Made by a program: the position numbers and the translations under genes. A DNA stretch of 64,000 nt, taken from the human T2T-CHM13v2.0 reference genome, Homo sapiens. Each line of letters begins with the position of its first letter. Within the stretch, counting starts at the first letter, position 1. The DNA lies in assembly GCF_009914755.1 (NCBI RefSeq), contig NC_060929.1. One strand, written 5' to 3'. This document shows, piece by piece, positions 4,499-26,999 of the stretch. Under the pieces are notes generated by a model, which saw only the letters and a program-made list of their open reading frames with translations, was not told the DNA's origin and did not search any database.

Positions 4499-4993
<495 letters not shown>

Positions 4994-7346: not shown

Positions 7347-8376
7347 ATGGGGAGAAGCCAGCGCAAAAATGCTGAAAATTCCAAAAACCAGAATGCGTCT
7401 TCTCCTTCAAAGGATCACAACTCCTCACCAGCAAGGAAACAAAACTGGACAGAGGGTGAGTTTGACAAATTGACAGAAGTAGGCTTCAGAAGGTGGGTAA
7501 TAACAAATTCCTCCGAGCTAAAAGAGCATGTTCTAAACCAATGCAAGGAAGCTAATAATCTTGAAAAAAGGTTAGACAAATTGCTAACTAGGATAACCAG
7601 TTTAGAGAAGAACATAAATGATCGGATGGAGCTGAAAAACACAGCACGAGAACTTCGTGAAGCATACACAAATATCAATAGCTGAATCAATCAAGTGGAA
7701 GAAAGGATATCAGAGATTGAAGATCAACTTAATAAATAAATAAACCGAGAAGACGAAATTAGAGAAAAAAAGAATAAAAAGGAACGAACAAAGCCTCCAA
7801 GAAATATGGGACTATGTGAAAAGACCAAATCTACATCTGATTGGTGTACTGAAAGTGATGGGGAGAATGGAACCCAGTTGGAAAACACTCTTCAGTATGA
7901 TATCCAGGAGAAATTCCCCAACCTAGCAAGACAGGCCAACATTCAAATTCAGGAAATACAGAGAACACCACAAAGATACTCTTCAAGAAGAGCAATCCCA
8001 AGACATATAATCCTCAGATTCACCAAGTTTGAAATGAAGGGAAAAAATGTTAAGGGCAGCCAGAAAGAAAGGCTGGATTACCCACAAAGAGAAGACCATC
8101 AGACTAACAGCAGATCTCTCTGCAGAAACCCTACAAGCCAGAAGAGAGTGGGGGCCAATATTCAACATTCTTAAAGAAAATAATTTTCAACCCAGAATTT
8201 CATATCCAGCCAAACTAAGCTTCATAAGTGAAGGAGAAATAAAATCCGTGACAGACAAGCAAATGCTGAGAGATTTTGTCACCACCAGGCCTGCCTTACA
8301 AGAGTTCCTGAAGGAAGCACTAAACATGGAAAGCAACAACCGGTACCAGCCACTGCAAAAACATGCCAAATTGTAA
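7347..8376 (+). pseudogene. L1 ORF1p remnant (stops and frameshifts)
   Basis: MGRSQRKNAENSKNQ..., ARQANIQIQEIQRTPQRY, YPAKLSFISEGEIK split over several frames. Confidence 0.9.
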
Positions 8377-8439
8377 AGACCATCGACACTAAGAAGAAAC
8401 TGTATCAACTAATGGGCAAAATAACCAGCTAGCATCATA

Positions 8440-10212
8440 ATGATAGGATCAAATTCATACATAACAATATTAAACTTCAATGTAAATGGGTTAAATGCCC
8501 CAATTAAAAGACACAGACTGGCAAATTGGATAAAGACTCAAGATGCATCAGTGTGCTGTATTCAGGAGACCCATTTCATGGGCAAAGACACAATAGGCTC
8601 AAAATAAAGGGATGGAGGAATATTTACTAAGCAATTGGAAAGCAAAAAGAAAAGCAGGAATTACAATCCTAATGTCTGATAAAACAGAGTTTAAACCAAT
8701 AAAGATCAAAAGAGACAAAGAAGGGCATTACATAATGGTAAAGGGATCAATGCAACAAGAAGAGCTAACTATCCTAAATGTATATACAACCAATATAGGA
8801 GTGCCCAGATTCATAAAGCAAGTTCTCAGAGACCTAAAAAGAGACTTAGACTCCCACACAATAATAGTGGGAGACTTTAACACCCCACTGTCAATATTAG
8901 GTAGAATGACGAGACAGAAAATTAACGAGGATACTCAGGACTTGAACTCAGCTCTGGACCAAGCAGTCCTAATAGACATCTACAGAACTCTCCACCCCAA
9001 ATCAACAGAATATACATTCTTCTCAGTACCTCACTGCACTCATTCTAAAATTGACCACATAATCGGAAGTAAAACACTCCTTAGCAAATGTAAAAGAACG
9101 AAAATCTTAAAAAAACAGTCTCTCAGACCACAGTGCAATCAAATTAGAACTCGGGATAAAGAAACTCACTCAAAACCGCAAAACTACATGGAAATTGAAC
9201 AACCTGCTCCTGAATGACTACGGGGTAAATAACAAAATGAAGGCAGAAATAAAGATGTTCTTTGAAACCAATGAGAACAAAGACACAACGTACCAGAATC
9301 TCTGGGACACGTTTAAAGTAGTGAGTAGAGGGAAATTTATAGCACTAAATGCCCACAAGAGAAAGCAGGAAAGATCTAAAATTGACCCCCTAACATCACA
9401 ATTAAAAGAACTAGAGAAGCAAGAGCAACTAAAGCCAAAATTGACAAATGGGATCTTATTAAACTAAAGAGCTTCTGCACAGCAGAAGAAACTATCATCA
9501 GAGTGAACAGGCAACCTATAGAATGGGGGAAAACTTTTGTAATCTATCACCCATCTGACAAAGGACTAATATCTAGAATCTATGAAGTTAAACAAATTTA
9601 CAAGAAAAAAACAAACAACTTCATCAAAAAGTGGGCAAAGTCTGTGAACAGACACTTCTCAAAAGAAGACATTTATGCAGCCAACAAACATGAAAAAATG
9701 CTCATCATCACTGGTCATTAGAGAAATGCAAATCAAAACCACAATGAGATGTCATATTACAGCCAGTTAGAATGGTGATCATTAAAAAGTCAGGAAACAA
9801 CAGATGCTGGAGAGGATGTGGAGAAATAGGAATGCTTTTACACTGTTGGTGGGAGGGTAAATTAGTTCAACCATTGTGGGAGACAGTGTGGCGATTCCTC
9901 AGTAATCTAGAACTAGAAATACCATTTGACCCAGCAATCCCATTACTGAGTATATACCCAAAGGATGATAAATCATTCTACTATAAAGACACATGTACAC
10001 GTATATTTATTGCAGCGCTATTCACAGTAGCAAAGACTTGGAACCCACCCAAATGTCCATCAGTGATAGATTGGATAAAGAAAATGTGGCACATATACAT
10101 CATGGAATACTATGCAGCCATAAAAAAGAATGAGTTTATGTCCTTTGCAGGGACATGGATGAAGCTGGAAACCATCATTCTCAGCAAACTAGCACAGGAA
10201 GAGAAAACCTAA
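8440..10212 (+). pseudogene. L1 ORF2p remnant: endonuclease and C-terminal Cys-rich region, RT domain missing
   Basis: ATG at 8440; EN motifs IIVGDFNTPLS and SKIDHIIG; C-terminal [18 protein letters not shown]; junction at ~9428. Confidence 0.88.
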
Positions 10213-10496
10213 CACCACATGTTCTCGCCGATAAGTGGGAGTTGAACATTGAGAACTCATGGACACAGGGAGGGAAACATCACACACCGGTGCCTGTCGG
10301 GGGGTGGGGGGCTAGGAGAGGGATAGCATTAGGAGAAATACCTAATGTAGATGATGGGTTGATGGGTGCAGCAAACCAACATGGCACGTGTATACCTATG
10401 TAATGAAACTGCACGTTCTGCACATGTACCCCAGAACTTAAAGTATAATTTAAAAAAGAAAAGGAAATAAAAAATAGATAAATAAATAAAATAAAA

Positions 10497-11047
10497 TTAC
10501 CATATAATCCAGCAATTCCACTTTGGGTGTATATACCCAAATGAACTGAAAGCAGGAACCTGAAGAGATATTTGTAAGTAATGCTCATAGAAGCATTCTT
10601 CTCAATAGCCAAACGTTACAAGTAATCCAACTGTATATTAATGAATAAATGAATAAACAAAATATGATGTGTACATGCAATGAAATAGCACTCAGTCTTT
10701 AAAAAGGAAGGAAATTCTGGCACATGCAACAACATGAGTGAACTGTGAAAACACTATGATAAATGAAATTAGTAAGTCACAAAGTACAAATACTGTATGA
10801 TTCCACTTATATGAGGTATCTAGAGTAGTCAAATTCATAGAGATAGCAAGTAAAATAGAGGTTTCCAGGGGTTGGGAGGAGGAGGGAATGGGAAATTATT
10901 TTTTAGTAGGTACAGAGTTTCAGTTTTGCAAGATGAAGAGTTCTATGAGTGGATGGTCATGGTGGTAACACAAGGATATGAATGTACTTAGTGCCACCAA
11001 ACTGTACACTTAAAAATGGTTAAGATAATAAATGTTACGTTATATGT
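10497..11047 (+). mobile_element. Old L1MB-type 3' fragment lying inside the L1PA7 target-site duplication
   Basis: TACTGTATGATTCCACTTATATGAGGTATCTAGAGTAGTCAAATTCATAG and CTGTACACTTAAAAATGGTTAAG are L1MB 3'UTR hallmarks. Confidence 0.75.
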
Positions 11048-14000
11048 AAAACAGAAAAAGAATGAGGTAAACTAAAAATGTGGAAAACAAAATCAAGATG
11101 TGAGTGTCTGATTTCTTTCTTTATAATATAGAATTTGTTTAAGAATTAAACCATTTATATATTTTGAGCTATCATTTATAGAACATTTGGTGGAATACTC
11201 TGAATAACTGAGATAAGATAGACAAGGTTGATATGTCCTGTTTTAAAACAACTTCATGGAAATGTTATCTTTTTAAGACTGTATTTTTAAATCTTATATT
11301 TATGATATAGAAAAATGGATTAAAATTATATTACGACATACATATACAAGCACACACCACACACATGTCATACAGAGTCGAAGCTTATAGTATAGTGAAA
11401 CTGATATTGGCTTTGCAGTAAACCAGACCTGGAAGTTTGGAAACTTACCTAAACCATTTATTTCTATTTTCTGTCCTGAAAACAGAAGAAAGCAACACAC
11501 GATTTATGGGTTTCCCATGCATATTTTATAAAGAGACACGATTGAACATGGCCTCTATCACATCTAGGATACTGCAATGGCTGTTTTCTGTGCATATAGT
11601 GCCTGCCTCCTTCATAACCTGTCTACACTGAAACTCTTTGGTTTTCTTGAACATACCTAACTTTGTCTTGCCTACACAGCTTTCCCTCTGGCTGTTCATG
11701 CAGTTCCCTTTGGCTGGAAGACTCTCATCCCCTTCTCTTTGCACAACTAACTTGTACTCTATTTTTAAGACCAAGTTTGAATACTTTTTTTGGTGACACC
11801 TTTGCTGACATCCCTATACTAGAGTGGCTACTTCATTTATGTGCTCACAAAGCACCCTCACTTCTGCTATCATGACCTTGTTACCCCCTATTAAAATTGT
11901 CAGGTTTTTAGTTGATGATAATCTCCTTAAAATAAGAATCCACATTGTTTAATGTCATAGGTATGACTTTCAGCAATGATCTTTCAAAATAGTCAGTGCT
12001 GATGAGGGTGCAGTGAGATAAACACTTCCACACTTTTTGTACAAAAGATAGGCATCTGGTAATAACATTAATAAACTTATTGGGTACCCATACTGCTCAA
12101 GGCATTACACTAAGTGCTTTCTTGCATTATCTCACTTAATCAACACAATGCTTTTCAGGAGTATGTACTCTACCAGTATCTGTATATTATACAGTTTAAG
12201 AAACAAAAACTCTCAGGGTCTAAATGACTTGCACCAGCTTATGAAGCTCTAGGTGGTGAATAAGGAAATAAACTTGGGTCAATTTGATGCTAACGCTATT
12301 TTTGCTCAACAACAATGCTCTACTATGCAAGTTTTCTGGGGAGCAATTAAACTATTCACACCTCAATGCAGTTGAATAAATGAGTACACACACACACGCA
12401 CACATATTAGAAACCATAACTCATATCCACTTTCCTTCTCCTTCTCAGGTAATAATATTTTTCTAATAATCATGTAATAGGGAATATTTTAATACTATCT
12501 CTAGCTTTTCTTTGCAGCCCTAGAAATAAAATGTCCCCATTACTTCCTAGGGTTGTTTCCCTCTCTCTCTGTCAATTAAATTATGTCAAACTCACAGGGG
12601 TGACTAGTAGTGAAGGCAGCATGATATGTACTGTGAGCTCACTAGAGTGCTTGCTCCTCAAGAGCAAAGACTGGTTTATTTATCTTTGTATCTCCAGTTC
12701 CCAGCATGGTGTTTTCCCCACTGTAGACAAATGATCAAAACTGTGGGAATGGGTTATTAAACAGATAATGAACTTGAGGTTACAGAATTTGTAACGGCTG
12801 TTTAGAAACTGTAAACTCCAATCACTCAATGAAATTGGAAAATAAAATGGATGATCTCTGTCAAGATAATATCTAAAGAAAAATCTTCTGTAGGAGGTTA
12901 TTGTATGTACTCTCTGAATGTGATGGTATTTGTAGAAGTGAGCAAAGCAGGTAAAACTGAACATTGAGTTGGATTCAACAATTAATAGATAATTTCCTAA
13001 ATATGAGACATTGTGCTAGGACCTGATTATTTTCTTATAATTAAGGAGAATTTTCTTTTTGTTATGATAACTCATCTTTTTAGTAAAGTAATTTGCATAT
13101 CCAGCCAGCAGAAAATAAGGCTTTGTCATGTGTAAAGAGGGCAGAGTAATCTTACTAAAACTCAACTCTAATGAGGTCTATTTTCCTGCTAACACATCTA
13201 AAAGGCTTCCTATTGCTGCGATGGTTTAAACTGTAAACTTTTTCACAGAAGACTTGGTTTTCCAAGATCTTTCCCTCATCACTACACTCCCTACACTACA
13301 ATCACACTAAACTTCTAATAACTCTCCCCAGATATTATGCTTTTTATGCCTCCATTCTCCAAACCTCGAATGCCCTCCTCTCTGTCTAGTGACACTCTAT
13401 TCATCTTTCAAGACACAGATCAAATGTTACTGAGGCTTCTGGCTCTTTGAGGCAGAGATAGCTGATCTGGTCAGTGCTTTGCGAGGGCTCCCAGCCAGGC
13501 ACCTGTCAATCTCAGGCTGTGGTTTCTGCCTCTATCCAAACCACAAAATCCTCAGGTCCAGTAACAGTTTCCAACTTTTCTTTGTTCCCTTTAAACATAG
13601 CACTGTAAAAGGTCTGTTTACTTCACCAGTGAATGGTTACTGCTTTGCAGTACAAGGTGTCTTCTTCATATTTTCCTCCTAAATTACTCAATGGAAAGAA
13701 TGATGGAAATAATAAACATGTAATTATGTTAGCAATTTATTTAATGTGCCAAATACTGGATTCAGTCCTGTATATATAATGGTGGACAAGAGAGATGTTC
13801 TTATCCTCATGGAAGCTGCACTCAATGAGGAGAAACACAGCAAAGTTGTTACACAAGCAAAATAATGATAGCTCATGATGAGTGACATGATGGAAGGAAT
13901 TAGGGTGTACAGTGGAGAATGGAGGAAGTGGTGAGGAAACAACATCAGAAGAGTTGAGGGGAGGTCTTCCTGAGCAGGAGAAATATGAGCAGACAGCTGA

Positions 14001-15199
14001 ATGAGGAAAAGTCTAGAACTGCATTCATGCATAAGTAAGAGCCACTCAAATGTCCTGGGGTGGGGACAAGCTCAGTGTGATCTGCAAAGAGCAGAAGGGC
14101 TGATGGGCTGGAGTGGAGTGAACAGATCATAGATAAAGGTGGACAGAGTGACCGGGATTGGACAGTATCAGGCCCTGTCTAAATGCAGTGGAACCCAGCA
14201 TACAGTTTTAAGCCACCAGTGATATAGTTGAAACCGCATGGTATTCAAATTTGTGTTGTAAGCCATTATTTACTTTTTTAATTGTAAAAAATTTTGTGTA
14301 TCTATCTGGACAAGACTTTCTCACTGGCTTAGTCTTTACTTCATTCCCCTCTCCACTGGGGGGCTCCAGAGATTGTTTCAAGAATGCAGTCTAGTCTCCC
14401 AAGCACCCTTCTTGTGGCAGTCTCTGAATTTCCCCAAAAGCTAGCTATGTTTAAGATGGGAACACCAACAAGAGAGCATGAACAACTGAATAAATAAAAG
14501 ATAAAAACACAATCAGCTCTGTGAAACAGTTCTGCATTTGACAGCATGAATATGAGGCAAAATAAGCATCACTATTTTTCTATAGAACCTATGGTATGCC
14601 GTGCCTTTACATGAACAAATACATTATGACTGGCTAGTTTTATTTTAAGTCAAAGTGACTATTCCAACAGAAGAAAGATTTAGACAACAGACATGAGAGG
14701 TATTTGGGCATAACCTGGTGGCCTGCTAATTAAAATGACCTTAACAGTTGTCAGTTTCTGAGTGTTTACTCTGTGCTGCCTAGCACTGTTTTAAGTGCAA
14801 TATATATATAAAATCTCATTTAATCCTTCATTAATCCTGATATTAATCTCAAAAGCTGATAGAGATGACCATTGGTTCCTTTACTGAAAATGGAAAACTG
14901 AGGTTTAGGGCCTTTAAGTGACTTGTCCAACATCTCAGATATATTATTGGTGGAGCTGGCATTTGGATGAAAGAGTGCTTGACTCCAAAGCCCTCCATGC
15001 CAACCAGAACACCAAATTAAAGAGTTTTCCATAGACTTCAGTTCAAGTCTCAGATCACTTTCTTGCAGTTTCAATTTCCTTGATTGTTATTTCCCCAGGG
15101 GAAAAAAAGAGACTTACAGACCCAACAAATTTGTAGTGCATCTCCAATGCCATGAAGATAATCAAAATGTTTTGTGAAGTCCCCAGTGTTATACAAAGG

Positions 15200-15200
<1 letters not shown>

Positions 15201-15248
<48 letters not shown>
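15201..15248. repeat. (TA)n followed by poly-T
   Basis: Direct reading. Confidence 0.95.
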
Positions 15249-15879
15249 GCCAGGTGCCTGATTTTTGCCTAAAAAGAAAATTCTCTCGCAAAAATGAATT
15301 CCTTAAAAACTCTATTTTTTTCCTAAACTTGGTTGTGTTTAGCCCTCTTTTGCAACTTGCCCCTAATTGAACACCAAATGTTCATTCATAGTATCTAATC
15401 CTCTCTCAGGTTTTTCATAAGGCGTTGGCAACAACAGAAGGTGATAGGGCAATAGCACGGGGGGTACGTTTTTACCCAGCTCTGCCACCATCACATTGTG
15501 CAGCTTAGGGCAAAACTCTTCATCCGGACCCCAAATTTAAAGTAAACAAGTGAGTTAGTGAGAGTTAAAGATTATTCCAAGTTTTAACATACTAGGGTAG
15601 TGTGTAGCCCATGACGGGAATGAAAGAAAGAAGAGGAAAAGGGCTAGATGACAATAGTGTTATCTTGTAATATTCTTTTAATTGAATCCATTATGGGGCT
15701 CTTGACCATAAGGCGACCACTAGCACTCCAACAAGTTCAGCGGATATTTCAGGTGTATCAGGCACTATCCTAGGATCTGGTCCCAAAAATGTTAAACAAA
15801 ACCAATATGATTCCTTCACTCTGTGGAACTTTACATCTCCATAGATCAAACAATGGAAATCTGAAACAGATATGTCAGC

Positions 15880-16176
15880 CACAGACACACTTTGTTTTAC
15901 CACCTTTTGTTTCACATTTAAAAATTCTGTCCATGTTTAAAAATAAGGAAGATTTAATACAAAAGTTCTCGTTTCCAGCTTCTCTTGAAAAATCTGAATA
16001 TTTAGCAGTGCTGAGCTGGCATTCCCACATGGCAGGGAAAGGTGGAGCTGAAAAGAAGTTGTCCTCACCCCACACCTAGAATAGACCCACACTCTCCATT
16101 GACCCCGCCCACCGTCACCATGACAGAGGCAACCTATGTGCCCAATCTGCGTAGGCTTAGGTGTGTGTGATTCTTG
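15880..16176 (+). mobile_element. MER102-like DNA transposon fossil
   Basis: CAGCTTCTCTTGAAAAATC...CATTCCCACATGGCA...GGAGCTGA resembles MER102; boundaries approximate. Confidence 0.55.
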
Positions 16177-16709
16177 GGTTAGAGATGGAAACAATAAGAA
16201 ACTATTTCAATCGTGTTGATTATTACAAAGAGCTGTATGGAGAGCTGCCATGGACAAGAACAGAGAAACCGCCAGCACTTCGGTCTTCATCTCTGCCCCG
16301 TCCGGCCCCCACTTCCACCCACAGAGAGCAAGGGCAACAAAGGTGCCTGGGAAATTTGGAGGCTGGGAGCCAGGCGACCTGGGCCTACCAAAGGTTCTCT
16401 CCACTAACTGTTATGCTACACTGGGCAAGTATTTTCTGTCTTTGTGCCTCAATTCCCTGTGCAATAAAACGGAAAGAAAGAAAAAAAAATCTACCAGACC
16501 ACAGTCCTTTAAGGATCTTTCCTGTTAGGATCCTGTAAAATTCTCACCACTGTCTTGGTCTCCCGTCATAACCCCAAGGGAAGTCTTAATGGCAATCTCG
16601 CCTTTCCCTTTCTAAGATCAGCAGGCTCCGACCCGCCACCCCCATGCCCACCACCATGGCGACGCAGGACGTGTCTCTTCAGGGGAATCCGAGCCCGGGC
16701 CGGGAAGTT

Positions 16710-17340
16710 GGGGAGGCACCCCCATGCGATATGGAAAGTAATAGCACCCCCACTTCCCTCCCTGGATATTACGATACACATCACAGGGGGTGAAGCACCC
16801 CCCTGGGAAATAAGGAGTAATAGCACCCCACCCTCCTCCACGCCTGGCTACATGGCGGGGGGGTGAGCCACACCCCTGCGATAGGGGGAGTAATAGCAAC
16901 CCCCTCTCCAACCCCTGGCTATTATGATCCACATCGCAGGTCCATCAGGCACACCCCTGCGATTCGGGGAGTAATAGCATCCCCCTCGCCCGCCCCGGCT
17001 ATTACGATCCACTGCACAATGGGGTGAGGCACCCCCTTGCGATATGGGGAGTAATAGGACACCCTCTCCCCCACTGGCTATTACGATCCACATCGCAGGG
17101 GGCTGAGGCAACCCCCGGCGATATGGGGGGTTACAGCACCCCCTCTGCCCCCAACCCCCCGGCTATTACGATCCATATGGCAAGGGGGTGAGACACCCCT
17201 CTGCCTTACGGGGAGTAATAGTCCCCCCTACCCCCCTGGCTATTACGATCCACATCGCAGGGTGGTGAGCCACCCCCCGCCATATGGGGAGTAATAACCC
17301 CTTCCTCTCCCCGACCCCACACCCCGCTATTACAATCCAC
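16710..17340 (+). repeat. SATR-like satellite, GC-rich monomer variant (~8 copies of ~79 bp), left cap
   Basis: Unit ~GCGATATGGGGAGTAATAGCACCCCCTCTCCCCCCTGGCTATTACGATCCACATCGCAGGGGGTGAGGCACCCCC. Confidence 0.85.
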
Positions 17341-19837
17341 GGTAGACTCACAGCCTGTTTACGATGCTGTGAGTAATATCATCTCCCCCTCTGGAAATTA
17401 CCAACTATTTCACACACGGGTGTACACCCTCTGCAGTATTGGGAGTAATATCATCCTCTTCCCCTCTGAATATTATAAACAATATCACAGGAGTGTTTAT
17501 ACTCCCTGTGATATTGGGTGTCATATCATTGTCTTCCACGTTAAAATTAGAAACAATATCCCTGGACGCGTGTACCACTTCTGTGATATTTAAGGTATTA
17601 CCCTCTTCTCTCCTGGATCATAGGAACAATATCCCTGGGGGGTGTACACTTTCTGCGATATTGGTAGTTAATAGCATCCCCTCCGCCTTTGAATATTAAA
17701 GACAATCTCACGCGGGGTGTACAACCCCTGCGATATTGGCAATATTATTATCCTTTCTCCCTGCATATTAGGAAAAATATCAGTATGAGTGTATACCTCC
17801 TGCGATATGGGGATTAATACCCTCTTCTCCTCTTATGGATATTAGGAACAATATCACAGGGGTTTTACATTTTCTTCGATATCTGGAGTAATGTCATCCT
17901 CTCTTTGTTTGAATGGTAAGAACAGTATCACAGGGGGGATGTACACCCCCTGCGATATTTTGAGTAATATTACGCTCTCCCCCGTTCCCTTGATATTAGG
18001 AACAGAATCCCAGGGTGGGTGTACTCCTCCTGCTATATGGAAAGTAACATCCTCTCCCTTCCTGGATTTTAGGAACAATATCACAGGGTGGGGGTACACA
18101 GCCTGCGATATTCAAAGTAATATCATCTTTCTTTCCGGACATTAAGAACACTATCACAGAAGGGTTGTACACTCTCTGCGATATTGGGAGTCATATCATT
18201 TTCGCCTTCCCTGAATATTAGGAGCAATATCCCCGGGTGGAGGTACACCCACTGTGATATTGGGATTAATGTCATCCTCTAACCCCTGAATATGAGGAGC
18301 AATATGACAAAGTGGTTGTACACCCACGGCGATATTGGGGGTAATATCATGCTCTCCCTTCCTGGATATTAGGAACAATGTCACAGGTGGGTGTACACCC
18401 CCTGCAGTATAAAGAATCATATTATCTTCTCTTCCTTTAGCTTTTAAGAACAATATCACATGGGGGGTGTACACCCCCTGCTCTATTGGGAGTAATATCG
18501 TTCTCTCGTATTCTGGATAGTAGAAATCATATCACAGGCGGGGTGTGCAACTCCTGTGATATTGAGAGTAATATCATCCTCTCCCAACGTGCATATTAGA
18601 AATAATATCACAGGGGGCGTATACACTTCTTCGATATTGGTAGTAATATCATCCTCTCCCCGCTGGATATAAGAAACAATATGACAGGCGGGGTGAACAC
18701 CCCCCGCGGTATGGGGAGTCATGTCCCGCCCTGGTTATTAGGATCCACGGTGGACACACCACATGTTTACGATATTGTGAGGAATATCTCCCTCTCTAGA
18801 AATTACGAACAATACCAAAGGCGGGTGTACACCCTCTGCAATATAGGGAGTCATATCATCCTTTCCACCCCTTGGATATTAGGAACAATGTCAAAGGAGT
18901 GTTTATAACCCCTGCGATATTGGGAGGAATATCATCCTCTACCACGTTGAAATGAGGAAGAGTATCCCTGGAGGTGTCTACACCCCTGCGATATTGAAGG
19001 GAATATCATCCTCTTCCCTGCTGAATCATGGGAACATTATCACTGGGGGGTGTACTCTCTCTGCGATATTGGGAGTAATATCATCCTCTCCACTTTGGAA
19101 TATTAAGGACAATGTCACCGGGAGGGGGGAGTGTACACTTGCTGCGGTATTGGGAATACTATTATCATCTCCCCACCTGCATATTAGGAAATATATCAGA
19201 GTGGGTGTACACCTCCTCCGATATGGGGAGTAATATCATCTTCTACCCTTCTGGATATCAGAAACAATATCACACGGGGGTGTGGACTTTCTGCGATATT
19301 GGGAATAATATCAACCTCTTGGCCTTTGAATATTAAGAACAATATCACAGGGTGGATGTACACCCCATGCGATGTTGGGAGTAATATCAGCCTCTGCCCT
19401 CTATGGCTATTAGGAACAATATCCCAGGCTGGGTGTACACCTCCTGCTATATGGGGAGTAATGTCATCCTCTTCCTGCCAGGATATTAATAACAATATCA
19501 CAGGGTGGGTGAACACAGCCTGCGATACTGGAAGTATGATCATCCTCTCCCCCTCCGGATACTAGGAACAATATCACAGAAGAGGTGTTCACTCCCTGCG
19601 ATACTGGGAGTCATATCATACACTTCCTCCGTGAATATTAGGAGCAATATCACCAGGCGGATGTACACCCACTGCTATGCTGGGAGTCATATCATACTCT
19701 ATCCCCTGGATATTAGGATCAGTGTCGCAGGATGAGTGTACACCTACTTCGATATTAAAACTAATATCATGCTCTCCATCCCTGGATGCTAGGAACAATA
19801 TCACAGGTGGGTGTACACCCCTTGAGGTATGAGGAGT
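17341..19837 (+). repeat. SATR1/SATR2-like satellite, left arm (~33 copies of ~75 bp)
   Basis: Unit ~GCGATATTGGGAGTAATATCATCCTCTCCCCCTGGATATTAGGAACAATATCACAGGGGGTGTACACCCCCT; family name from recall. Confidence 0.85.
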
Positions 19838-20190
19838 GATATTATTATAATTAGTAATCAGGAATTATTAATATTAATATTAATTACTAGTACAATATTA
19901 TGTAATAATAATTATTTTAATTTTACGATTATGTAGGAGTATAACTAATTGTTATTAATGTTATTTATCAATATTATTAATCTTAATATAAATTATTTTA
20001 TCATCATTTTATGATGGATTTAATTAACAGTTATTACTGATATGAGTATTTCATTATTAATAATGATATTACTATGAATTATTAATCATGTGCATTATGA
20101 TTAAGTCATTAATTTTGTCCTCATTATTATTATTATCAATGATTACTCTTAATTATTATTATATGTATTAATATTAATAATCAATAGTAT
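19838..20190. repeat. AT-rich core between the satellite arms
   Basis: About 84% A+T by hand count over 19861-20160; ATTA/TAAT-rich. Confidence 0.9.
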
Positions 20191-23100
20191 TTTTCCTGAT
20201 ATCCAGTGGGGAGAGGGTGATATTATTCCCAATATCATAGAAGGTGTACACCCCCCTATGACGTTATTTTTAACAGCCAGGGGCTAGAGGATGACATTAC
20301 TCCAAATATTGCAGTGGGTGTACATCCCTTCTGTGATCTTGTTTCTAATATCCTGGGTGGGAGAGGATGATATTACTCCCAATATCGCAAGGGGCGTAGA
20401 CCTCCACCGTGACATTGTCTCTAATATCCAAAGGTGGAGAGGATATTTCTTCCAATTTCGCACGGATGTACACCACCCCTGTGATACAGTTCCTAATATC
20501 TAGGCGGCGACAGGATGATATTAGTCTCAATATCGCTGGAGGTGTACACTCCCTAGTGATGTTGTTCCTAATATCCAGGGACGGAGAGGATGCTATCACT
20601 CCCAATATAACAGGGGGTGTACACCCCTTCTGTGACATTGTTCCTAATAGCCAGCGGGGGAGAGGAAGATATTACTCTCAATATCGCAGGGGGTATACAC
20701 CCCCTTGTGATATTGTTTCTTAGATCCCGGGAGGGAGACGATGATACTAGTGGCAATATCGCAGGGGCTGTACACACCTCCTGCGATATTGTTCTTATCC
20801 CTAAGGGGAGAGCATAATATGACTCTCAATATCGCAGGGGGTGGACACCTCCTTTGTAATATTGTTCTTAATATCCATGATGGGAGAGGATATTACTCCC
20901 TGTATCGCAAGAAGTGCACAGCCTCCTGTGATATAGTTCCTAATATCTAGGTGCAGAGAGGATGATATTACTCCCAATATCTCACGAGTTGTAAAACGCC
21001 TTCGATATTTTGCCTACAATCCCGGGGGTGAGAGGATGACATTACTCCCAATATCAAAGGTTTACATCCCCCCTTGACGACATTCTTCCTAATATCCACA
21101 TTGGGAGACGATGATATTACGCCCAATACCACAGGTGCGGTACACCCGTCCTGTGATATTGTTCGTAATATCCCAGGGAAGAGAGGATGATATGACACCC
21201 AATATCGCAGGCGGTGTACACCCTCCCAGTGATATTGTTCTCAATGTCCAAGAAGGGAAATGATGTTATTACCGCAGATATCGAAGAGCTTGTACTCCCT
21301 CTCCCTTCCAGGATATTGCTCCTAATATCCAGGGGAAGAGAGGATAACATTATGTCCGATATCGCAGGGGGTTGTACACCCCACCCCCGTGATATTGGTC
21401 CTAATATCCAAAGGTAGAGACGATAAAATTACTCCCAATATCGCAGGGGGTGTACACCCCTCTTGTGATACTGTTCTTAATATTTAGGCGGGGAGACAAT
21501 GATATTACTGTCCATATCGCAGGGGTGGACAACATCCCTGTGATGTGGTTTTTAATATTCAGTGGGGGAGAGGATGCTATTAATTCCAATATCACAAGGG
21601 ACACACCTCCTGTGACATTGTTCCTAATATCCAGGGGAAGAGAAATGATATGACTCACAATTTGGCAAGGGGTGTACACCCCCTCCATAATATTGTCCCT
21701 AATATCCAGGGGGGATCAAAATGATATTACTCCCCCTATCACAGGGGGTGTACAGTACCCCAGTGATATTGTTCCTTATATCCAGGGAGAGGGAGGATAT
21801 TACCCCCAATATCGTAGGGGTGTACACACCCCCTGTGATATTGTTCCTAATATTTAGGTGGGGAGAGGATGATATCCCAATATCGCAGGCAGTATAAACC
21901 CCTCTGTTATTTTGTTGCTAATATCTAGGTTGGGAGAGGATGATATTACTGCCAATATCGCAGGAGTTGTACACCCCACCTGTGATATTATTCCCAATAT
22001 CCAGGGGAAGAGAGAATGATATTACTTTCAATAGCGCTGGAGGTGTACACGCCCATGTGATATTGTTCCTAATATCCAGTGGGGGAGACTATGATATTAC
22101 TGGCCATATCGCGGGGGTTGTGCACTCCCTCTGTGATGTTGTTTTTAATATCCAGGGGGTAGAGGATGACATGACTCTCAATATTGCAGTGGGTGTACAC
22201 CAACTCTGTGGTATTGTTCTTAATATCCAGGGAGGGAGAGGATGATATTACTGTCAATATGGCAAGGGGTGGACACCCCTTCTTTGATATTGTTCCTAAT
22301 ATCCAGGGGGGAAGAGTATGATATTAAGCCCAATATCGCTGGGAGTATGCACTCTTTTTTGATATTGTTCCTTATATCCCGGGGGAGAGTCTAGGTTATT
22401 ACTGGCCATATCACAGGGTGTGTACACCACCACTGTTATATTGTTTTTTATTTCCAGCAATGAAGAAATTGATTATACTCCCAAAATGGAATGGGCTGTA
22501 CATCCCCCATGAGATATGGTTCCTAATATTCAGAAGGGAAAGGATGATATTACTCCCAATGTTGCAGCGGGTGTATAATCCTCCTGTGATATTGCTCCTA
22601 ATATCTAGGGGGGGTGAGGATGATATTACTCGCAGTAACGCAGAGGATGTACACCACCTCTGTGATATTGTTCTCAATATCCATGGGGATAGAACATTAT
22701 ATTACTCCCAGTATCGCAGGTGGTGTACATCCATGCCCCATGATATTTTTTCTGATACCCAGGTGAGGGGAGGATGATGTTACTCCCAATATCGCAAGTG
22801 GTGTACAAACATTCTTTGATATTTTTCCTGCTCTTTACGGGTTGAGAGGATGGTATTACTCCCAGTATCGAAGAAAGTGTACACGCCCCCTGTGATACTG
22901 TTCCTTATATCTAAGTTAAAAAAGAATGATATTACCTTCAGTATCGCAGGGGGTGGGGTGTACACTCCGCCTGTGATATTATTTCTAATATCAAGGGGAA
23001 GAGAGAATAATGTTACTCCCAACAGCGCAAGGGATGTACACAAATGGTGATATTGTTCCTAATATCCAGGGAAGGAGATGATGATATTACTGGCCATATC

Positions 23101-24312
23101 GCAGGAAGTGTACACCCTTCTGTAATATTGTTTCTAACATTCAGTGGGGGAGAGAATAAAATTGATCCCAATATCGCAGGTGTACAGACCCCTTTGATAG
23201 AGTTTTTAATGTACAGGGAAAAAGAATAATATTATGCCCAATGTCGCAGGGGTTGTAACCCCCCCGCCCCCCACTGTATATTCTTCCTAATAGGCAGCAT
23301 AGTAGAGGCTTATATTACTACCAATATCGCAGAAGGTGCACACACACCTGTGATATACTTCCTAATATCCAGCGGGAAAGAGGCTGCTATTACTTTCAAT
23401 ATCGCAGTGGGTGTACATCCCCCCTGTGGTTTTGCTCCTAATATCCAGGGGGGAAGAGATGATATTACTGACAATATCACAGGGGGTGTACACCTCTTCT
23501 GTGATATGGTTCCTGATATAAAGGGGGAAAGTGGATGATATTACTCTTAATAACGTAGGAAGTGTACACCCACCCTGTGATTTTGTCCCTAATAACCGCA
23601 TGGGGAGAGGTGATATTACTCCCAATATTGCAAGGGGTGGACACCCCACAAGTCATATTGTTTCTTAAATCCAGGAAGGGAAAAGATGGTATTACTACCA
23701 ATATTGAAAGGATGTACAGAACGCATTTCTTATTGTTCTTAATATCCAGGTCGAAAGGAGATAACATTACTTTTAATATAATAAGGGTGGTACACCCTGC
23801 CTGTGATATGATTCCTAAAATCTAGAAGAAGAGAGAATGATATTACTTCCAATAATACACTGGGTGTGCAACCCCCTTTGATATTGTTCCTAATATCTAA
23901 AGAAAGAGATGATGATATTACTCCCAATACTGTAGAAGGTATACACCGTCCTGTGATATTGTTCCTAATAACTAGTGGGTGAGGGCATGATATTATTTCA
24001 AATATCGCAGTGGCTTTACACCCCTTCCGTGATATTTCTCCTAATTTCCAGGGGGTGGAGTACGAAGTTACTCCCAATATAGTAGTGGGTGTACACCCAC
24101 GCTGTCACATTTCTACGAATATTCAGGGAAACACAGCACGATAGAACTCCAAGTCTCGCAAAGAGTGTACACCATTTTGTGATATTGTTCCTAATAACCG
24201 GAGGTGGATAGGATGCTGTTAGTTTCAATATCGCAGGCTGTGTACACACACACTGTGAAATTGTTTCTAATATCCAAGAGGGGAGAGAATGCTATTAATT
24301 CCCATATAGCAA
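20191..24312 (-). repeat. SATR1/SATR2-like satellite, right arm in inverted orientation (~55 copies of ~75 bp)
   Basis: Unit is the reverse complement of the left arm (GATATTGTTCCTAATATCCAGGGGGAGAGGATGATATTACTCCCAATATCGC); TGTACA-equivalent positions 20245, 20319, 20395, 20467, 20543, 20618. Confidence 0.88.
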
Positions 24313-24682
24313 GAGGGTGAGGCACACCCCGCCATATGGGGAGTAATAGGACCCCCCCTCCCTCCCTGGCTACTACGAGCCACATCGCTGGGGTGTGAGG
24401 CACCCTCCTGCCATATGGGGATTAATAGCGTCCCCCTTTCCCCCCCGACTATTACGATCCACATCGCAGGGGAGTGAGGCTTCCCCCGCGATATGAGGAG
24501 TAATAGCACCGCCCTCTCCCCCTCAACCCCCCGGCTTTTAGGATCCACATCGCAGGGGGGTGAGGCACCCCCGGCGATATGGAGAGTAATAGCACCCCCC
24601 TTCTCCCCCCCCCCCCCCGGCTATTACGATCCACATCGCAGGGGGGTGAGGCAGTTCCCGTGATATGGGGCGTAATAGTACC
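24313..24682 (+). repeat. SATR-like satellite, GC-rich monomer variant (~5 copies), right cap, same orientation as left cap
   Basis: GGCTATTACGATCCACATCGCAGGGGGGTGAGGCACCCCC units as at 16710-17340. Confidence 0.85.
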
Positions 24683-25060
24683 CGCTGTGCGTCCTGGTGG
24701 CTCCGGACCCGGCCCAAGCGCGGCGGGACCTCCATCCGTAGCCCTCTCCCCCAACGTCGCCCTCCCGGGGTCCTTGTCTAGTCTCAGCAGGCGGCAAACG
24801 GACCCCAGGCGTCTGGCGCTCACCCAGGAGACTGCCCAGCGGTTTCTGGAGAGAGCGCTAAGCGGAGACGCCCGCTGGCAAGCAGATCCCGCCTCCTTCC
24901 CTGGCCAAGGAGCCGCCCCTCCGGGGTAGCTGTGCGCTGGGCGGCGCTCGGACCCCTTGGCAGCCGCAGGTGCCTCCCCAGCCCAGCCCAGCTCAGTCCA
25001 GCGCAGCCCAGCCCAGCCCAGCCCGGCGCTCGCAGCCTCCGCCGCTTCCGGGCAGATAGG
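24683..25060. promoter_or_regulatory. STK32A: CpG-island promoter of STK32A
   Basis: Dense CpG, GC box CCGCCCC near 24913, (CCCAG)n at ~24977-25024, directly upstream of a strong splice donor. Confidence 0.8.
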
Positions 25061-25168
25061 TGCCTTTTCTTGCTCCTTGCTCTTGGAGTTCTTCTCTTAG
25101 TCCCTGTTCCCTGGATGAAAGCATCGCTCCGAGCCTCATGGGAGGAATGAAGGAAGAATCGAGACTAG
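24930..25168 (+). other. STK32A: STK32A non-coding exon 1 (start approximate)
   Basis: Ends at consensus donor TAG|GTGAGT (GT 25169-25170) at the 3' edge of the CpG island; TSS cannot be fixed from sequence. Confidence 0.7.
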
Positions 25169-26999
25169 GTGAGTGGTGGTCTAGATTTAACGAATAATAA
25201 CAATAAACCTGCATACTAAGGGTACTGTTGGGAAGCTAGGAAGTGCAAGGAGAAGAGAAGACAAAGGCTGCTGATCAAGATAACTCACAAAACTAAATGC
25301 AGGCTAGGGCCAATTCCAGCTATTTTGCACTCCATCCAGGTTCCCCTGCCTGGCACTGACTCATGTGCAGACCCAGACAGACTTCAATAAATATTTGCTG
25401 GGTTGAGACAAGTGAGTGGAGGTGTTTCTGCTTGTTCTCCAGCATCTAAACAAGCAAAACCTAGCTGCCTTTGATGATTGCTTCATCTCCACAAGGACTT
25501 TTTCCCCCAGGACTTAAAAAATAAAATGTGGTGTATTCACACAACGGACTGCTATGCAGCACTTAAAAAGCTAAAATCAGAGCTGTAGGGATCAGCATGC
25601 CTGTACCTAGATTTCAGAAGTATGATGGCAGATAGACACAGCAAGATGCAAAATATATCCACTCTATCATGCCATTTAGGTGACTTATTTTAAGACACTT
25701 GTCATGTTTGTAAAATCATAGAAGGGGGACTGTAAAATGTTTATCACATCCGTGATTGTGGCTGTCTTTGGAAAGTGTGAAAGGGAAATCAATTGGACTT
25801 TAGGATTAAGGTGGAAATAATATTTCCCTAAAATGCTTTAAAAATAAAAATGATGATATAAAGATGACCAAATATAAACAATTGTTAACTGAGAGTGTTA
25901 TTAACTTGGGCATTTTTCATGTTTTTGCCCCCTATTTTTAAAATATTTCTTAAACTAAGAAGTTCTGTTTTTCAAATGCAAACAAAATAAGTTGTGTCTA
26001 TGCACATTCTGTGACAATGAAACCTAAAATGTTTAATCAAAAGTTGCAACTTTCTTGCATCACCTCCTATGTTTTCCAATCCTAGAAGACCACACCTCTT
26101 TATCTAGGGAGGCTTGGTGGTTAGAGAAGCTTACCTGTTGACAACCCCCAAATTACAGGCCAAAGATGAAAGGTTGGTATTAGGGAACTAGTTCCCAGTT
26201 AATAATCTGATAATCGGCCAGGTCAGGGTAGACTCTGAAAACTCCCTGTGTCCCTGCAAGACAAATTTCTCCTCCTTTTACATTTCATATGCTTTGGATT
26301 TTCATTTTCATGGATGGTAGCTGTCCTCTTCACATCTCAAAATGATGCTTAGGTAACACTGCAGACCTAGTGCCTGGAGATCAGGAAGGGCTGGGGGGTT
26401 GGTAAAAGAGAGTCCTACAGCTCTACTGGGCTCTTCAGCAGAATGGAAAGGACATGTCTCCATTTTCCTGCGAGAGAAAGGTAGATTTCTTTCTGAATAT
26501 GAAAAAAAAAATCTAATTTGGTTATCCACATGGGAGAGAAAATGAAAAATAATTTTAAACTGGATTGTGTATGTTAGGTGCAATGAAGAAGATACTAAAC
26601 GACCACCCAGTGGTTCCATCTGCTTCCCCCTTCCACAGACACACACAAAAATGGTTCCCTGTTTGCATATTATCTTCCCACTAAAAATCACTTGGTCCGT
26701 GGTGAACAAAATTGTGTGCACATCAGAATGAAATTCTGAAACATGGAAAATTGCGATAATATTCCTTCCTCTTTCTCTTTCTGATTCGACAACTTGCAAG
26801 GTCAGTGCTTGGTATATCTTATGTTGCAGGATGACAGGCTACTTGAGAAAAACCTGAGGTGTGAAGAAAGATATAAGAATGACAGGACTGGGGTGCATTG
26901 TGAAAACTACATGTACTCAGGTTTTAAGCACAAAATAAAAGACAATGTAGCCTCTGCCTGCAGTTAACAACTGCAAATCCTTAAAATTAATGTTCTCCC

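What the first reader, a model, noticed from the sequence alone, without database searches (positions are those of the whole stretch)
16710..24682. Organised 8-kb fold-back satellite cassette at the STK32A promoter
Seen: five ordered parts. These are a GC-variant cap (+, 16710-17340), a left arm (+, to 19837), an AT-rich core (to 20190), a right arm (-, to 24312) and a GC-variant cap (+, to 24682). This is not a plain tandem array: inverted arms built of tandem repeats around a spacer recall Foldback-type elements, and the two direct-orientation caps look like an integration or recombination footprint. No SINE, LINE or LTR insertion is visible in the 8 kb, although the rest of the window is TE-dense. 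Known: the monomer resembles the catalogued SATR1/SATR2 satellites. Inference: the cap-arm-core-arm-cap unit may be a discrete non-coding element that spreads or amplifies as a whole. I see no TSD and no transposase.
Basis: partly seen in the sequence, partly recalled or inferred. Interest (0 to 1): 0.85.

Follow-up and report, generated by a model that had tools for sequence, protein, structure and literature searches.

The report
Solo SATR satellite unit beside STK32A
The 8-kb block just upstream of the STK32A gene is one old, complete copy of a multi-kilobase composite satellite unit (SATR family) that has been copied as a whole block to many human chromosomes, so it is a real and tidy structure but belongs to an already catalogued repeat family.

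Summary
The five-part layout is real. It runs GC-rich cap (+), 76-bp-monomer arm (+), 345-bp AT core, arm (-), cap (+).

It is not unique to this site. At all 17 loci examined, every AT core (21 of 21) lies between a + arm and a - arm. The cap strand equals the core strand in 16 of 16 loci where both were called.

The chr5 unit aligns collinearly with units on chr11, chr9, chr2, chr22 and chr13, at 73-84% identity over 2.7-7.0 kb. Monomers within the chr5 array are only about 63% alike. The chr5 flanks are single-copy. So the multi-kb unit, not the monomer, is what was copied.

The caps are part of the unit, not an integration footprint. The two arms are not mirror copies of each other. I found no TSD, no conserved termini and no long ORF.

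The family is known in outline:
- SATR1/SATR2 flank the Xiao/DA duplicons (PMC2700803).
- A macaque preprint describes a GC-rich / inverted / AT-rich / forward core unit.

Verdict: an old solo member of a known composite satellite. How it disperses is unresolved.

The parts
16600..16712 (.). Left flank next to the cassette. It is a 113-bp CpG-island-like fragment and is context, not part of the repeat.
   Evidence: GC 0.655 and CpG o/e 0.67, against 0.21-0.51 further left. The 1.2 kb to the left is single-copy in the genome apart from 55-115-bp pieces.
16713..17329 (+). Left cap: 7-8 GC-rich variant monomers of about 79 bp.
   Evidence: TRF period 79, 7.6 copies. GC 0.60 and CpG o/e 0.46. Cap monomers resemble right-cap monomers (0.66) more than arm monomers (0.48).
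17330..17370 (+). Conserved non-monomer linker between cap and + arm.
   Evidence: The chr5 linker query gave 24 matches in the fetched loci: 20 at cap-to-arm(+) junctions (the chr5 self-match among them) and 4 inside long + arms.
17371..19842 (+). Left arm: 33 monomers of about 76 bp, with the polypyrimidine tract on the top strand. A second, decayed linker copy lies at about 18722-18783.
   Evidence: The lag-19 duplication shows identity 0.75 against 0.60-0.67 at other lags. Monomer AL19 matches no other monomer above 0.37. Interior linker copies lie at the same relative place in chr11, chr22, chr2 and chr9 units.
19843..20187 (+). AT-rich core, 345 bp, 15% GC: the switch point from + to - orientation.
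   Evidence: A core-only query found 33 matches including itself, at 68-76% identity, on 11 chromosomes. It is not detectably derived from the monomer.
20188..24319 (-). Right arm: 55 monomers of about 76 bp in reverse orientation.
24298..24340 (.). Switch from - to + orientation, lying within the monomer's own palindrome.
   Evidence: This stretch is a gap in monomer hits. I read the sequence. The monomer palindrome is shown.
24320..24683 (+). Right cap: 4.4 GC-rich variant monomers of about 86 bp, the beginning of a next unit.
   Evidence: TRF. GC 0.62 and CpG o/e 0.56. Caps occupy the same place in multi-unit arrays elsewhere.
24682..24900 (-). STK32A-AS1 exon 1. The GT of its splice donor lies inside the last cap monomer, so intron 1 holds the whole cassette.
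   Evidence: Exon coordinates come from the hub's annotation. The plus strand reads AC at 24680-24681.
24684..25168 (+). CpG island holding the bidirectional STK32A / STK32A-AS1 promoter and STK32A exon 1 (24995-25168). Context, not repeat.
   Evidence: GC 0.70-0.72 and CpG o/e 0.60-0.78. Single-copy apart from a (CCCAG)n run.

Best explanation
The block is one complete, old copy of the higher-order unit of the SATR composite satellite.

The unit is: GC-rich cap, a 40-bp linker, a run of 76-bp monomers in + orientation, a unique AT-rich core of about 345 bp, then a run of the same monomers in - orientation. At STK32A there is one such unit plus the cap of a next unit.

Each monomer is itself a 38-bp near-palindrome next to an asymmetric polypyrimidine tract. 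'Orientation' therefore mostly means which strand carries that tract, and the switch from - to + lies in the monomer's own palindrome.

Shown:
- The multi-kb unit, not the monomer, is what has been copied between chromosomes.
- The copy at STK32A carries no flanking sequence from anywhere else.

Inferred:
- Copies arose by DNA-level copying of pieces of pre-existing SATR arrays, through replication template switching, break repair or circular intermediates, not through a transposase. Ends differ between loci and lack TSDs.
- The chr5 copy landed in, or grew up beside, the STK32A CpG island tens of millions of years ago. It has no shown function there, apart from supplying the splice donor of STK32A-AS1 exon 1.
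- As single-stranded DNA, the region around the core can fold back on itself.
For: 1. Layout. The parts and strands are shown.

2. Recurrence.
- The 801-bp arm-core-arm query gave 36 near-full-length matches at 74-81% on 10 other chromosomes. Only 40 of 426 candidates were scored.
- The core alone gave 33 matches, with 40 of 42 candidates scored.
- At the 17 loci I mapped, 21 of 21 cores lie between a + arm and a - arm.
- The cap strand equals the core strand in 16 of 16 loci where both were called.
- 13 of 15 internal switches from - to + carry a called cap.
- The chr5 linker query matched 20 cap-to-arm junctions, the chr5 self-match among them.

3. Unit-level copying. The longest collinear alignments of the chr5 unit are:
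- chr11 unit a: 80.0% over 5052 bp
- chr9 unit b: 84.1% over 3743 bp
- chr9 unit a: 80.2% over 4551 bp
- chr2:82.5 Mb: 82.4% over 2976 bp
- chr22 unit a: 81.1% over 2694 bp
- chr13:92.3 Mb: 72.8% over 7020 bp
Within chr5, out-of-register self-alignments reach only 69-71% and monomers average 0.63. The best-matching monomer at the other locus is the collinear one in 32 of 41, 28 of 32, 34 of 56, 28 of 52, 21 of 32 and 32 of 81 cases.

4. No shared flanks.
- The chr5 flanks are single-copy.
- Among fetched loci, only the Xiao/DA group shares flanks at about 90-96%.
- chr13:53.5 Mb and chr2:193.1 Mb share the cassette only.

5. Palindromic monomer.

6. Fold-back potential. The core-centred 951 nt folds at -164.9 kcal/mol, against -83.4 for shuffles (z -13.3). 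An arm interior gives z -6.0 and the arm/cap junction z -8.7.

7. Literature.
- SATR1/SATR2 form the SATR-HERVE-SATR flanks of Xiao/DA. The locus table in that paper matches my short-arm group (PMC2700803, passages).
- The macaque SATR1-SATR1v core unit is described as GC-rich array, inverted SATR1, AT-rich repeat, forward SATR1 and a further repeat (10.1101/2025.08.04.668424, section 7 part 1).
Against: - I could not run RepeatMasker or Dfam. The names SATR1, SATR1v and SATR2 for individual parts rest on homology to loci that papers label so, not on a direct match to the consensus.
- Macaque SATR1v is reported at 81% GC.
- No orthologous empty site could be examined, because no other primate genome is available here. 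That the cassette is an insertion at STK32A is therefore inferred, not shown.
- The copying mechanism is not established. PMC2700803 reports TSDs of 4-9 bp for Xiao/DA insertions, whose ends carry SATR blocks. That keeps a transposition-like process open.
- Multi-unit loci are mosaics. chr22 units a and c are 97% alike, but unit b is only 85-86% like them and about 92% like the Xiao group. chr9 units a and b are 88.5% alike. A simple one-circle rolling-circle origin does not predict this.
Confidence: 0.72

Rival explanations
1. The cassette is a non-autonomous mobile element. It would be either a foldback-like transposon or the mobile end-piece of the Xiao/DA composite elements, moved in trans by an unknown enzyme and inserted at STK32A.
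For: - Inverted arms built of tandem repeats surround a spacer.
- The same cassette lies at 8 or more groups of loci without shared flanks.
- Cassette-only copies at chr13:53.5 Mb, chr2:193.1 Mb and chr22 unit b are 90.3-92.9% like the Xiao-group units, that is, of similar age to the Xiao wave.
- PMC2700803 (passages) reports TSDs of 4-9 bp and pre-insertion sites for Xiao/DA, and suggests they may be TEs.
Against: - The arms are not mirror copies.
- The outer caps are direct, not inverted.
- Left and right ends fall in different parts of the unit and at different monomer phases. No TSD was seen at any of the 13 left and 10 right ends inspected.
- No ORF above 149 aa lies inside the cassette.
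- Many loci hold 1.3 to more than 3 units in tandem, which looks more like an array than an element.
Confidence: 0.15
2. The inverted structure formed in place at STK32A. A local fold-back or breakage-fusion event would have duplicated a plain SATR array in inverted orientation around an AT-rich loop.
For: The geometry is palindrome-like. Predicted single-strand fold-back across the core is strong, z -13.3.
Against: - The same junctions, core and linker are present and collinear at unlinked loci. The inversion therefore predates the chr5 copy.
- There is no mirror similarity between the arms.
Confidence: 0.02
3. It is part of an ordinary segmental duplication that carried unique flanking sequence.
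For: Many SATR blocks do lie in the Xiao/DA duplicons, whose flanks are shared at about 90-96% (PMC5088589, passages).
Against: - 1.2 kb on each side of the chr5 cassette has no other copy in the assembly, apart from 55-115-bp pieces and a (CCCAG)n run.
- The nearest relatives of the chr5 unit are only 84.5-86.4% alike over the central 1.85 kb.
Confidence: 0.02
4. The cassette is kept at the STK32A promoter because it does something there, for instance as a KZFP-bound heterochromatin block or boundary that shapes the bidirectional promoter. This does not exclude the best explanation.
For: - It abuts the CpG island and supplies the STK32A-AS1 exon 1 splice donor.
- CpG o/e in arms and caps is 0.41-0.56, against 0.08 in the intron to the right.
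- ZNF141 is reported as enriched over SATR1 (10.1101/2023.02.27.530095, one passage). ZBTB24 ChIP reads are reported to match SATR1 and SATR2 (10.1101/2023.08.31.555516, one passage).
Against: - Only chr5, 1 of the 8 loci whose outer 300 bp I measured, sits beside CpG-island-like DNA.
- No expression, methylation or population data were available here.
- The AT core is less conserved between loci (0.67-0.78) than the arms beside it (0.80-0.89), and nothing points to constraint.
Confidence: 0.08

Closest known systems
SATR1-SATR1v 'core unit' of macaque subtelomeric and interstitial arrays (10.1101/2025.08.04.668424; section 7 part 1 and passages read)
   Same: The order of parts matches: a GC-rich variant array, an inverted SATR1 array, an AT-rich uncharacterised repeat, a forward SATR1 array and a further short uncharacterised repeat. 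The paper also reports interstitial solo-core loci without spacers or composite flanks.
   Different: - The macaque arms are short and fixed (589 and 191 bp). Here they are 2.5 and 4.1 kb.
- Macaque SATR1v is 81% GC.
- The paper gives no comparison of units between human loci and does not mention STK32A.
- Whether the macaque chr6 solo core is the orthologue of this locus is unknown.
SES (SATR-HERVE-SATR) flanks of the Xiao and DA composite duplicons (PMC2700803, PMC5088589; passages read)
   Same: The same cassette, in a short-arm form with arms of about 850 and 675 bp, lies at 2p-71, 3p-75, 4p-9, 7p/q, 9q, 13q-40 and 13q-67. These match the paper's locus table. Those units are 81-83% like chr5 over the central 1.85 kb, except 13q-40 at 72.6%.
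   Different: Those copies share flanks at about 90-96%, carry a HERV-E insertion and date to 25-7 Myr ago. The chr5 copy has unique flanks, no HERV-E and long arms, and it is more diverged. 5q does not appear in the Table 1 text and footnotes I read.
Foldback (FB) transposons of Drosophila and similar elements (properties recalled, not from a call)
   Same: Long inverted arms built from tandem sub-repeats surround a middle segment, and the copies are dispersed and non-coding.
   Different: The arms here are not copies of each other. The outer ends are direct repeats (the caps). There are no conserved termini and no TSD, and copies often form tandem multi-unit arrays.
Palindromic AT-rich repeats (PATRRs) at translocation breakpoints (recalled)
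   Same: An AT-rich centre is flanked by inverted sequence, with strong predicted single-strand fold-back. SATR blocks are reported at rearrangement breakpoints in 8p23.1 (PMC5088589).
   Different: The core itself is not a palindrome: its reverse-strand self-matches are 62%, the same as low-complexity noise. The arms are only about 64-71% complementary, not near-perfect.

Membership tests
SATR composite satellite unit | Arms made of the SATR1 monomer (match to the Repbase/Dfam consensus) | not testable with these tools
   No RepeatMasker or Dfam library is available here. Indirect support: the arms are homologous to blocks at loci that papers label SATR1/SATR2.
SATR composite satellite unit | Ordered parts: GC-rich variant array, monomer array in one orientation, AT-rich spacer, monomer array in the other orientation | tested here: met
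   Shown at chr5. The same order holds at all 17 loci mapped.
SATR composite satellite unit | A second short non-monomer piece in the unit (macaque 'rnd155') | tested here: inconclusive
   A conserved linker of about 40 bp lies at cap-to-arm junctions (20 matches). I cannot tell whether it equals rnd155, because I have no sequence of that repeat.
SATR composite satellite unit | Position-specific homology of the whole unit with other members | tested here: met
   Collinear alignments reach 73-84% over 2.7-7.0 kb. The collinear monomer is the best match in 21-34 cases per locus pair.
Foldback-type transposon | Long inverted arms built of tandem sub-repeats | tested here: met
   33 monomers lie in + and 55 in - orientation around the core.
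Foldback-type transposon | Arms are inverted copies of each other, ending in inverted termini | tested here: not met
   The mirror test gives 0.642 at shift 0 against 0.629-0.651 at other shifts. The two outer caps are in direct orientation.
Foldback-type transposon | Target-site duplication and the same termini at independent insertions | tested here: not met
   13 left and 10 right ends were inspected. They lie in cap, arm or core and at different monomer phases, with no flanking direct repeat. Empty sites could not be examined.
Foldback-type transposon | Dispersed copies in unrelated flanking DNA | tested here: met
Foldback-type transposon | Some copies carry a transposase gene | tested here: not met
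   Tested for the chr5 copy only. No stop-to-stop frame above 149 aa lies inside the cassette. Other loci were not scanned.
Segmental duplication | Unique flanking sequence shared with another locus | tested here: not met
   The chr5 flanks of 1.2 kb on each side have no second copy.
PATRR-type palindrome | AT-rich sequence that is itself a near-perfect palindrome | tested here: not met
   The core's reverse-strand self-matches are about 62%, like its out-of-register same-strand matches. A 150-nt piece of the core folds no better than shuffles, z -0.73. The strong fold comes from the arms.

The most novel reading that the evidence does not exclude
The SATR cassette is a non-coding, self-contained mobile DNA. 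In this reading a palindrome-rich satellite unit leaves arrays, for instance as a unit-length circle or hairpin-ended fragment, and re-enters the genome at new sites. STK32A would be one old landing site. The same unit would later have become the end-piece that let the Xiao/DA duplicons move and seed the 8p23.1 and 4p16 rearrangement hotspots.
Probability: 0.2. Interest if true: 0.75.

Novelty: new member of a known kind. Interest (0 to 1): 0.42.

Why it matters
The result shows that for this satellite family the thing that evolves and spreads is a structured block of 2.5-8 kb with fixed landmarks: cap, linker, + arm, AT core and - arm. The 76-bp monomer is not that unit.

Such blocks have reached at least eight unrelated genomic contexts without carrying flanking DNA. 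This gives a concrete, testable system for asking how satellites seed new loci.

The same block marks the ends of the Xiao/DA duplicons, which are reported at rearrangement breakpoints in 8p23.1.

For STK32A itself the practical points are modest:
- An 8-kb, palindrome-rich, CpG-retaining repeat lies 311 bp upstream of the transcription start.
- The whole repeat fills intron 1 of STK32A-AS1.
- The repeat provides that exon's splice donor.

Short-read mapping, methylation calls and promoter assays at this gene should take this into account.

Tried and rejected
- **Core as decayed monomers.** I aligned the core to a tandem arm consensus in the four-letter and the purine/pyrimidine alphabet. Scores were no better than dinucleotide shuffles: 8-11 against 9.1 +/- 1.2, and 65.5-70 against 74.4 +/- 6.3. 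There is no 76-bp periodicity. Rejected.
- **Arms as mirror copies.** Rejected.
- **CpG-island targeting as a general property.** Only chr5, 1 of the 8 loci whose outer 300 bp I measured, has CpG-rich DNA at its ends. Rejected.
- **Virtual empty site at chr13:53.5 Mb.** Both flanks hold copies of one interspersed repeat; the LTR12 name is recalled. The left flank matches a late part of the copy on the right, so it is not one element split by the cassette. Nothing could be inferred.
- **Rfam scan of 16000-25500.** Three matches, all far below their gathering scores.
- **nhmmer with the single core sequence.** It missed several cores that BLAST with the low-complexity filter off found.
- **Fuzzy regex for the linker.** It timed out and was replaced by blastn-short.
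- **Second batch of 20 genome stretches.** A smaller request passed. About 12 of 29 loci were therefore not mapped.
- **Literature searches that found nothing relevant:**
  - STK32A with SATR: one unrelated paper.
  - STK32A with 'satellite repeat': 0 papers.
  - SATR1 with eccDNA: 0 papers.
  - SATR1v: only the macaque paper.

Full report
**1. The observation**

TRF finds four tandem arrays between 16713 and 24683:
- a 79-bp-period GC-rich array at 16713-17339;
- a 76-bp array of 33 copies at 17371-19842;
- a 76-bp array of 55 copies at 20188-24319;
- an 86-bp GC-rich array at 24317-24683.

A monomer query hits the + strand over 16717-19845 and 24323-24677, and the - strand over 20188-24319. 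It hits nothing else in the 64-kb window above noise. The stretch between the arms, 19843-20187, is 15% GC.

Monomer hits cover the cassette except for the core and three short gaps: 17127-17154 (28 bp), 17288-17370 (83 bp) and 24298-24340 (43 bp). No transposon-sized insertion is present. No stop-to-stop frame longer than 149 aa lies inside it.

**2. Anatomy of the chr5 copy**

The monomers are old. Mean pairwise identity is 0.63 within the left arm, 0.64 within the right arm and 0.63 between the arms. It is 0.48-0.49 between arms and caps.

The arms are not mirror images. Pairing the k-th monomer from the core on each side gives 0.642. Shifts of -5 to +5 give 0.629-0.651.

The left arm holds an old tandem duplication of about 19 monomers: identity at lag 19 is 0.75, against 0.60-0.67 at other lags.

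Each monomer is itself a 38-bp near-palindrome, centred on TGTACA in the arms and TGAGGCA in the caps. It sits next to an asymmetric polypyrimidine tract. This explains the weak reverse-strand hits. It also means that 'orientation' is largely a matter of which strand carries the C-rich tract. The switch from the - arm to the right cap lies in this palindrome.

A non-monomer linker of about 40 bp sits between the left cap and the left arm. The AT core shows no sign of being decayed monomers.

**3. The same unit elsewhere**

The assembly holding the window can be searched. An 801-bp query covering arm, core and arm (window 19600-20400) gave 36 matches covering at least 98% of the query at 74-81% identity. 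They lie on chromosomes 2, 3, 4, 7, 9, 11, 12, 13, 14 and 22. Only 40 of 426 candidate places were scored, so this is a lower bound. The core alone gave 33 matches including itself. Together these amount to about 29 places on 11 chromosomes.

I fetched 16 of them. With chr5 included, 17 loci were mapped with profiles for arm and cap and with BLAST for the core:
- All 21 cores lie between a + arm on the left and a - arm on the right. Twenty passed the threshold; one at chr11 was just under it.
- In the 16 loci where both a cap and a core were called, the cap has the strand of the core.
- Of 15 internal switches from - to + orientation, 13 carry a called cap. The other two are gaps of 138 bp or less that contain the linker.
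- The chr5 linker query gave 24 matches. Twenty are at cap-to-arm(+) junctions, the chr5 self-match among them. Four are inside long + arms, at the place of the lag-19 duplication.

Several loci hold tandem runs of the unit: chr22:36.15 Mb has three cores, and chr9:117.99 Mb and chr11:43.3 Mb have two each. The true repeating unit is therefore cap, linker, + arm, core, - arm. The chr5 block is one unit plus the cap of a next one. The caps are part of the unit, not a footprint of integration.

**4. The unit is what was copied**

The longest collinear alignments of the chr5 unit are:

| Partner | Identity | Length |
|---|---|---|
| chr11 unit a | 80.0% | 5052 bp |
| chr9 unit b | 84.1% | 3743 bp |
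| chr9 unit a | 80.2% | 4551 bp |
| chr2:82.5 Mb | 82.4% | 2976 bp |
| chr22 unit a | 81.1% | 2694 bp |
| chr13:92.3 Mb | 72.8% | 7020 bp |

Out-of-register alignments inside chr5 reach only 69-71%.

Monomer by monomer, the best match at the other locus is the collinear monomer in 32 of 41 (chr9 b), 28 of 32 (chr2:82.5), 34 of 56 (chr11 a), 28 of 52 (chr9 a), 21 of 32 (chr22 a) and 32 of 81 (chr13:92.3) cases. Mean identity is 0.75-0.86 for collinear monomers and 0.70-0.72 for all others.

Over the central 1.85 kb the nearest relatives of chr5 are 84.5-86.4% alike.

**5. Flanks**

The 1.2 kb on each side of the chr5 cassette has no other copy in the assembly. The exceptions are 55-115-bp pieces on the left and a (CCCAG)n run on the right.

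Among the fetched loci, only one group shares flanks at about 90-96%: chr2:71, chr7:99, chr9:102.4 and 102.9, chr13:40.6 and 67.1, and the two chr4 loci. chr3:75.7 has units of the same type, but its flanks were not fetched. This group has short fixed arms of about 850 and 675 bp. Its units are 90-95% alike, except that the chr13:40.6 unit aligns at 82-85%.

The places of this group match the table of Xiao and DA loci in PMC2700803: 2p-71, 3p-75, 4p-9, 7p/q-6.6/97, 9q-92a/b, 13q-40 and 13q-67 (Table 1 text). The coordinate offsets between assemblies are my inference. That paper calls the conserved flank 'SATR-HERVE-SATR' and dates Xiao to 25-18 Myr ago and DA to 14-7 Myr ago.

The remaining loci are chr5, chr9:118.0, chr11:43.3, chr22:36.15, chr2:82.5, chr2:193.1, chr13:53.5 and chr13:92.3. 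They share only interspersed-repeat-sized matches at 66-86%. For chr13:53.5 and chr2:193.1 the homology to other loci starts and stops inside the cassette, and their right flanks hit only common repeats elsewhere.

**6. Ends**

I looked at 13 left and 10 right ends. Arrays begin in a cap, in a - arm or next to core-like AT-rich DNA. They end in a cap or in a - arm, at differing monomer phases. I saw no flanking direct repeats. This fits pieces cut from arrays better than an element with defined termini. Without empty sites it is not decisive.

**7. Fold-back potential**

As single-stranded DNA, the 951 nt centred on the core fold into one long imperfect hairpin of -164.9 kcal/mol. Shuffles give -83.4 +/- 6.1 (z -13.3). 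A 951-nt stretch from inside the right arm gives z -6.0 with only local hairpins. The arm/cap junction gives z -8.7. The name 'fold-back' is therefore fair as a description of potential structure. Whether it forms in cells is not known.

**8. Age (inference)**

I take the Xiao/DA group (90-95% alike, published age 25-7 Myr) as a yardstick. The 84.5-86.4% between chr5 and its nearest relatives is then 1.5-3 times more divergence, roughly 30-70 Myr.

The macaque preprint reports an interstitial solo SATR1 core on macaque chr6. Macaque chr6 is the homologue of human chr5 by my recollection.

**9. Setting at STK32A**

The right cap ends at 24683. STK32A-AS1 exon 1 spans 24682-24900 on the minus strand, and the GT of its donor is the AC at 24680-24681, inside the last cap monomer. 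The STK32A start at 24995 is 311 bp from the cassette.

The 113 bp just left of the cassette are CpG-island-like (GC 0.655, o/e 0.67), unlike the DNA further left. This would fit a CpG island split by the cassette, but that is inference only.

Among the 8 loci whose outer 300 bp I measured, only chr5 sits next to CpG-rich DNA. Promoter proximity is therefore not a property of the family.

**10. What is known**

- SATR1 and SATR2 are catalogued satellites.
- A SATR1 variant was added in the T2T repeat annotation (10.1101/2021.07.12.451456, one passage).
- SATR1/SATR2 mark the Xiao element and duplication breakpoints in 8p23.1 (PMC5088589, passages).
- The macaque preprint describes a core unit of GC-rich SATR1v, inverted SATR1, an AT-rich repeat, forward SATR1 and another repeat, and speaks of palindromic configurations (section 7 part 1).
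- ZNF141 is reported as enriched over SATR1. ZBTB24 ChIP reads are reported to match SATR1 and SATR2.
- hsa-mir-3683 is listed as SATR1-derived (PMC3059204, one passage).

My searches found no paper on a satellite at STK32A, none on the unit-level homology between human SATR loci, and none on SATR and eccDNA.

**11. Verdict**

It is an old solo member of a known composite satellite family, not a Foldback transposon by the features I could test. How such units reach new sites remains open and is the interesting part.

Noticed in passing
window 24977-25024: A (CCCAG)n run of 9.6 copies lies at the STK32A start (annotated exon 1 begins at 24995). Similar runs form long arrays on chr14 around 99.8-100.1 Mb and at a few other places.
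   Followed up: partly
window 24680-24682 (minus strand): The splice donor of STK32A-AS1 exon 1 is supplied by the last monomer of the right cap. Intron 1 of the lncRNA therefore begins inside the satellite and contains all of it.
   Followed up: yes
L015+L016 (chr22:36,145,001-36,165,000), units at about 6072-10060, 9900-12160 and 12030-16100 of the joined 20 kb: The three tandem units form a mosaic. The outer two are 97% alike and of the long-arm type. The middle one is only 85-86% like them and about 92% like the Xiao/DA short-arm type. Either two kinds of unit were copied together or one entered an existing array.
   Followed up: partly
L033 (chr2:82,524,001-82,533,000), 4117-4716: The AT core here is about 600 bp, made of two overlapping copies of the 345-bp core.
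   Followed up: no
L011 (chr9:117,985,001-117,995,000), 2957-4209: A 1.25-kb insertion interrupts a + arm. It is 92.5% like sequence in the right flank of the chr13:67.1 Mb locus and 85% like a 451-bp piece left of the chr5 cassette. It is probably an interspersed repeat, which shows that these arrays do tolerate insertions.
   Followed up: no
window 16713-24683: CpG observed/expected is 0.41-0.56 throughout arms and caps, against 0.08 in the STK32A intron just to the right. That is high for DNA that is presumably old and methylated.
   Followed up: no
chr7:6.97 Mb (match, not fetched): PMC3059204 lists hsa-mir-3683 as SATR1-derived. By recollection that miRNA lies on 7p, near this SATR locus. 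The palindromic monomer would readily give a hairpin precursor.
   Followed up: no
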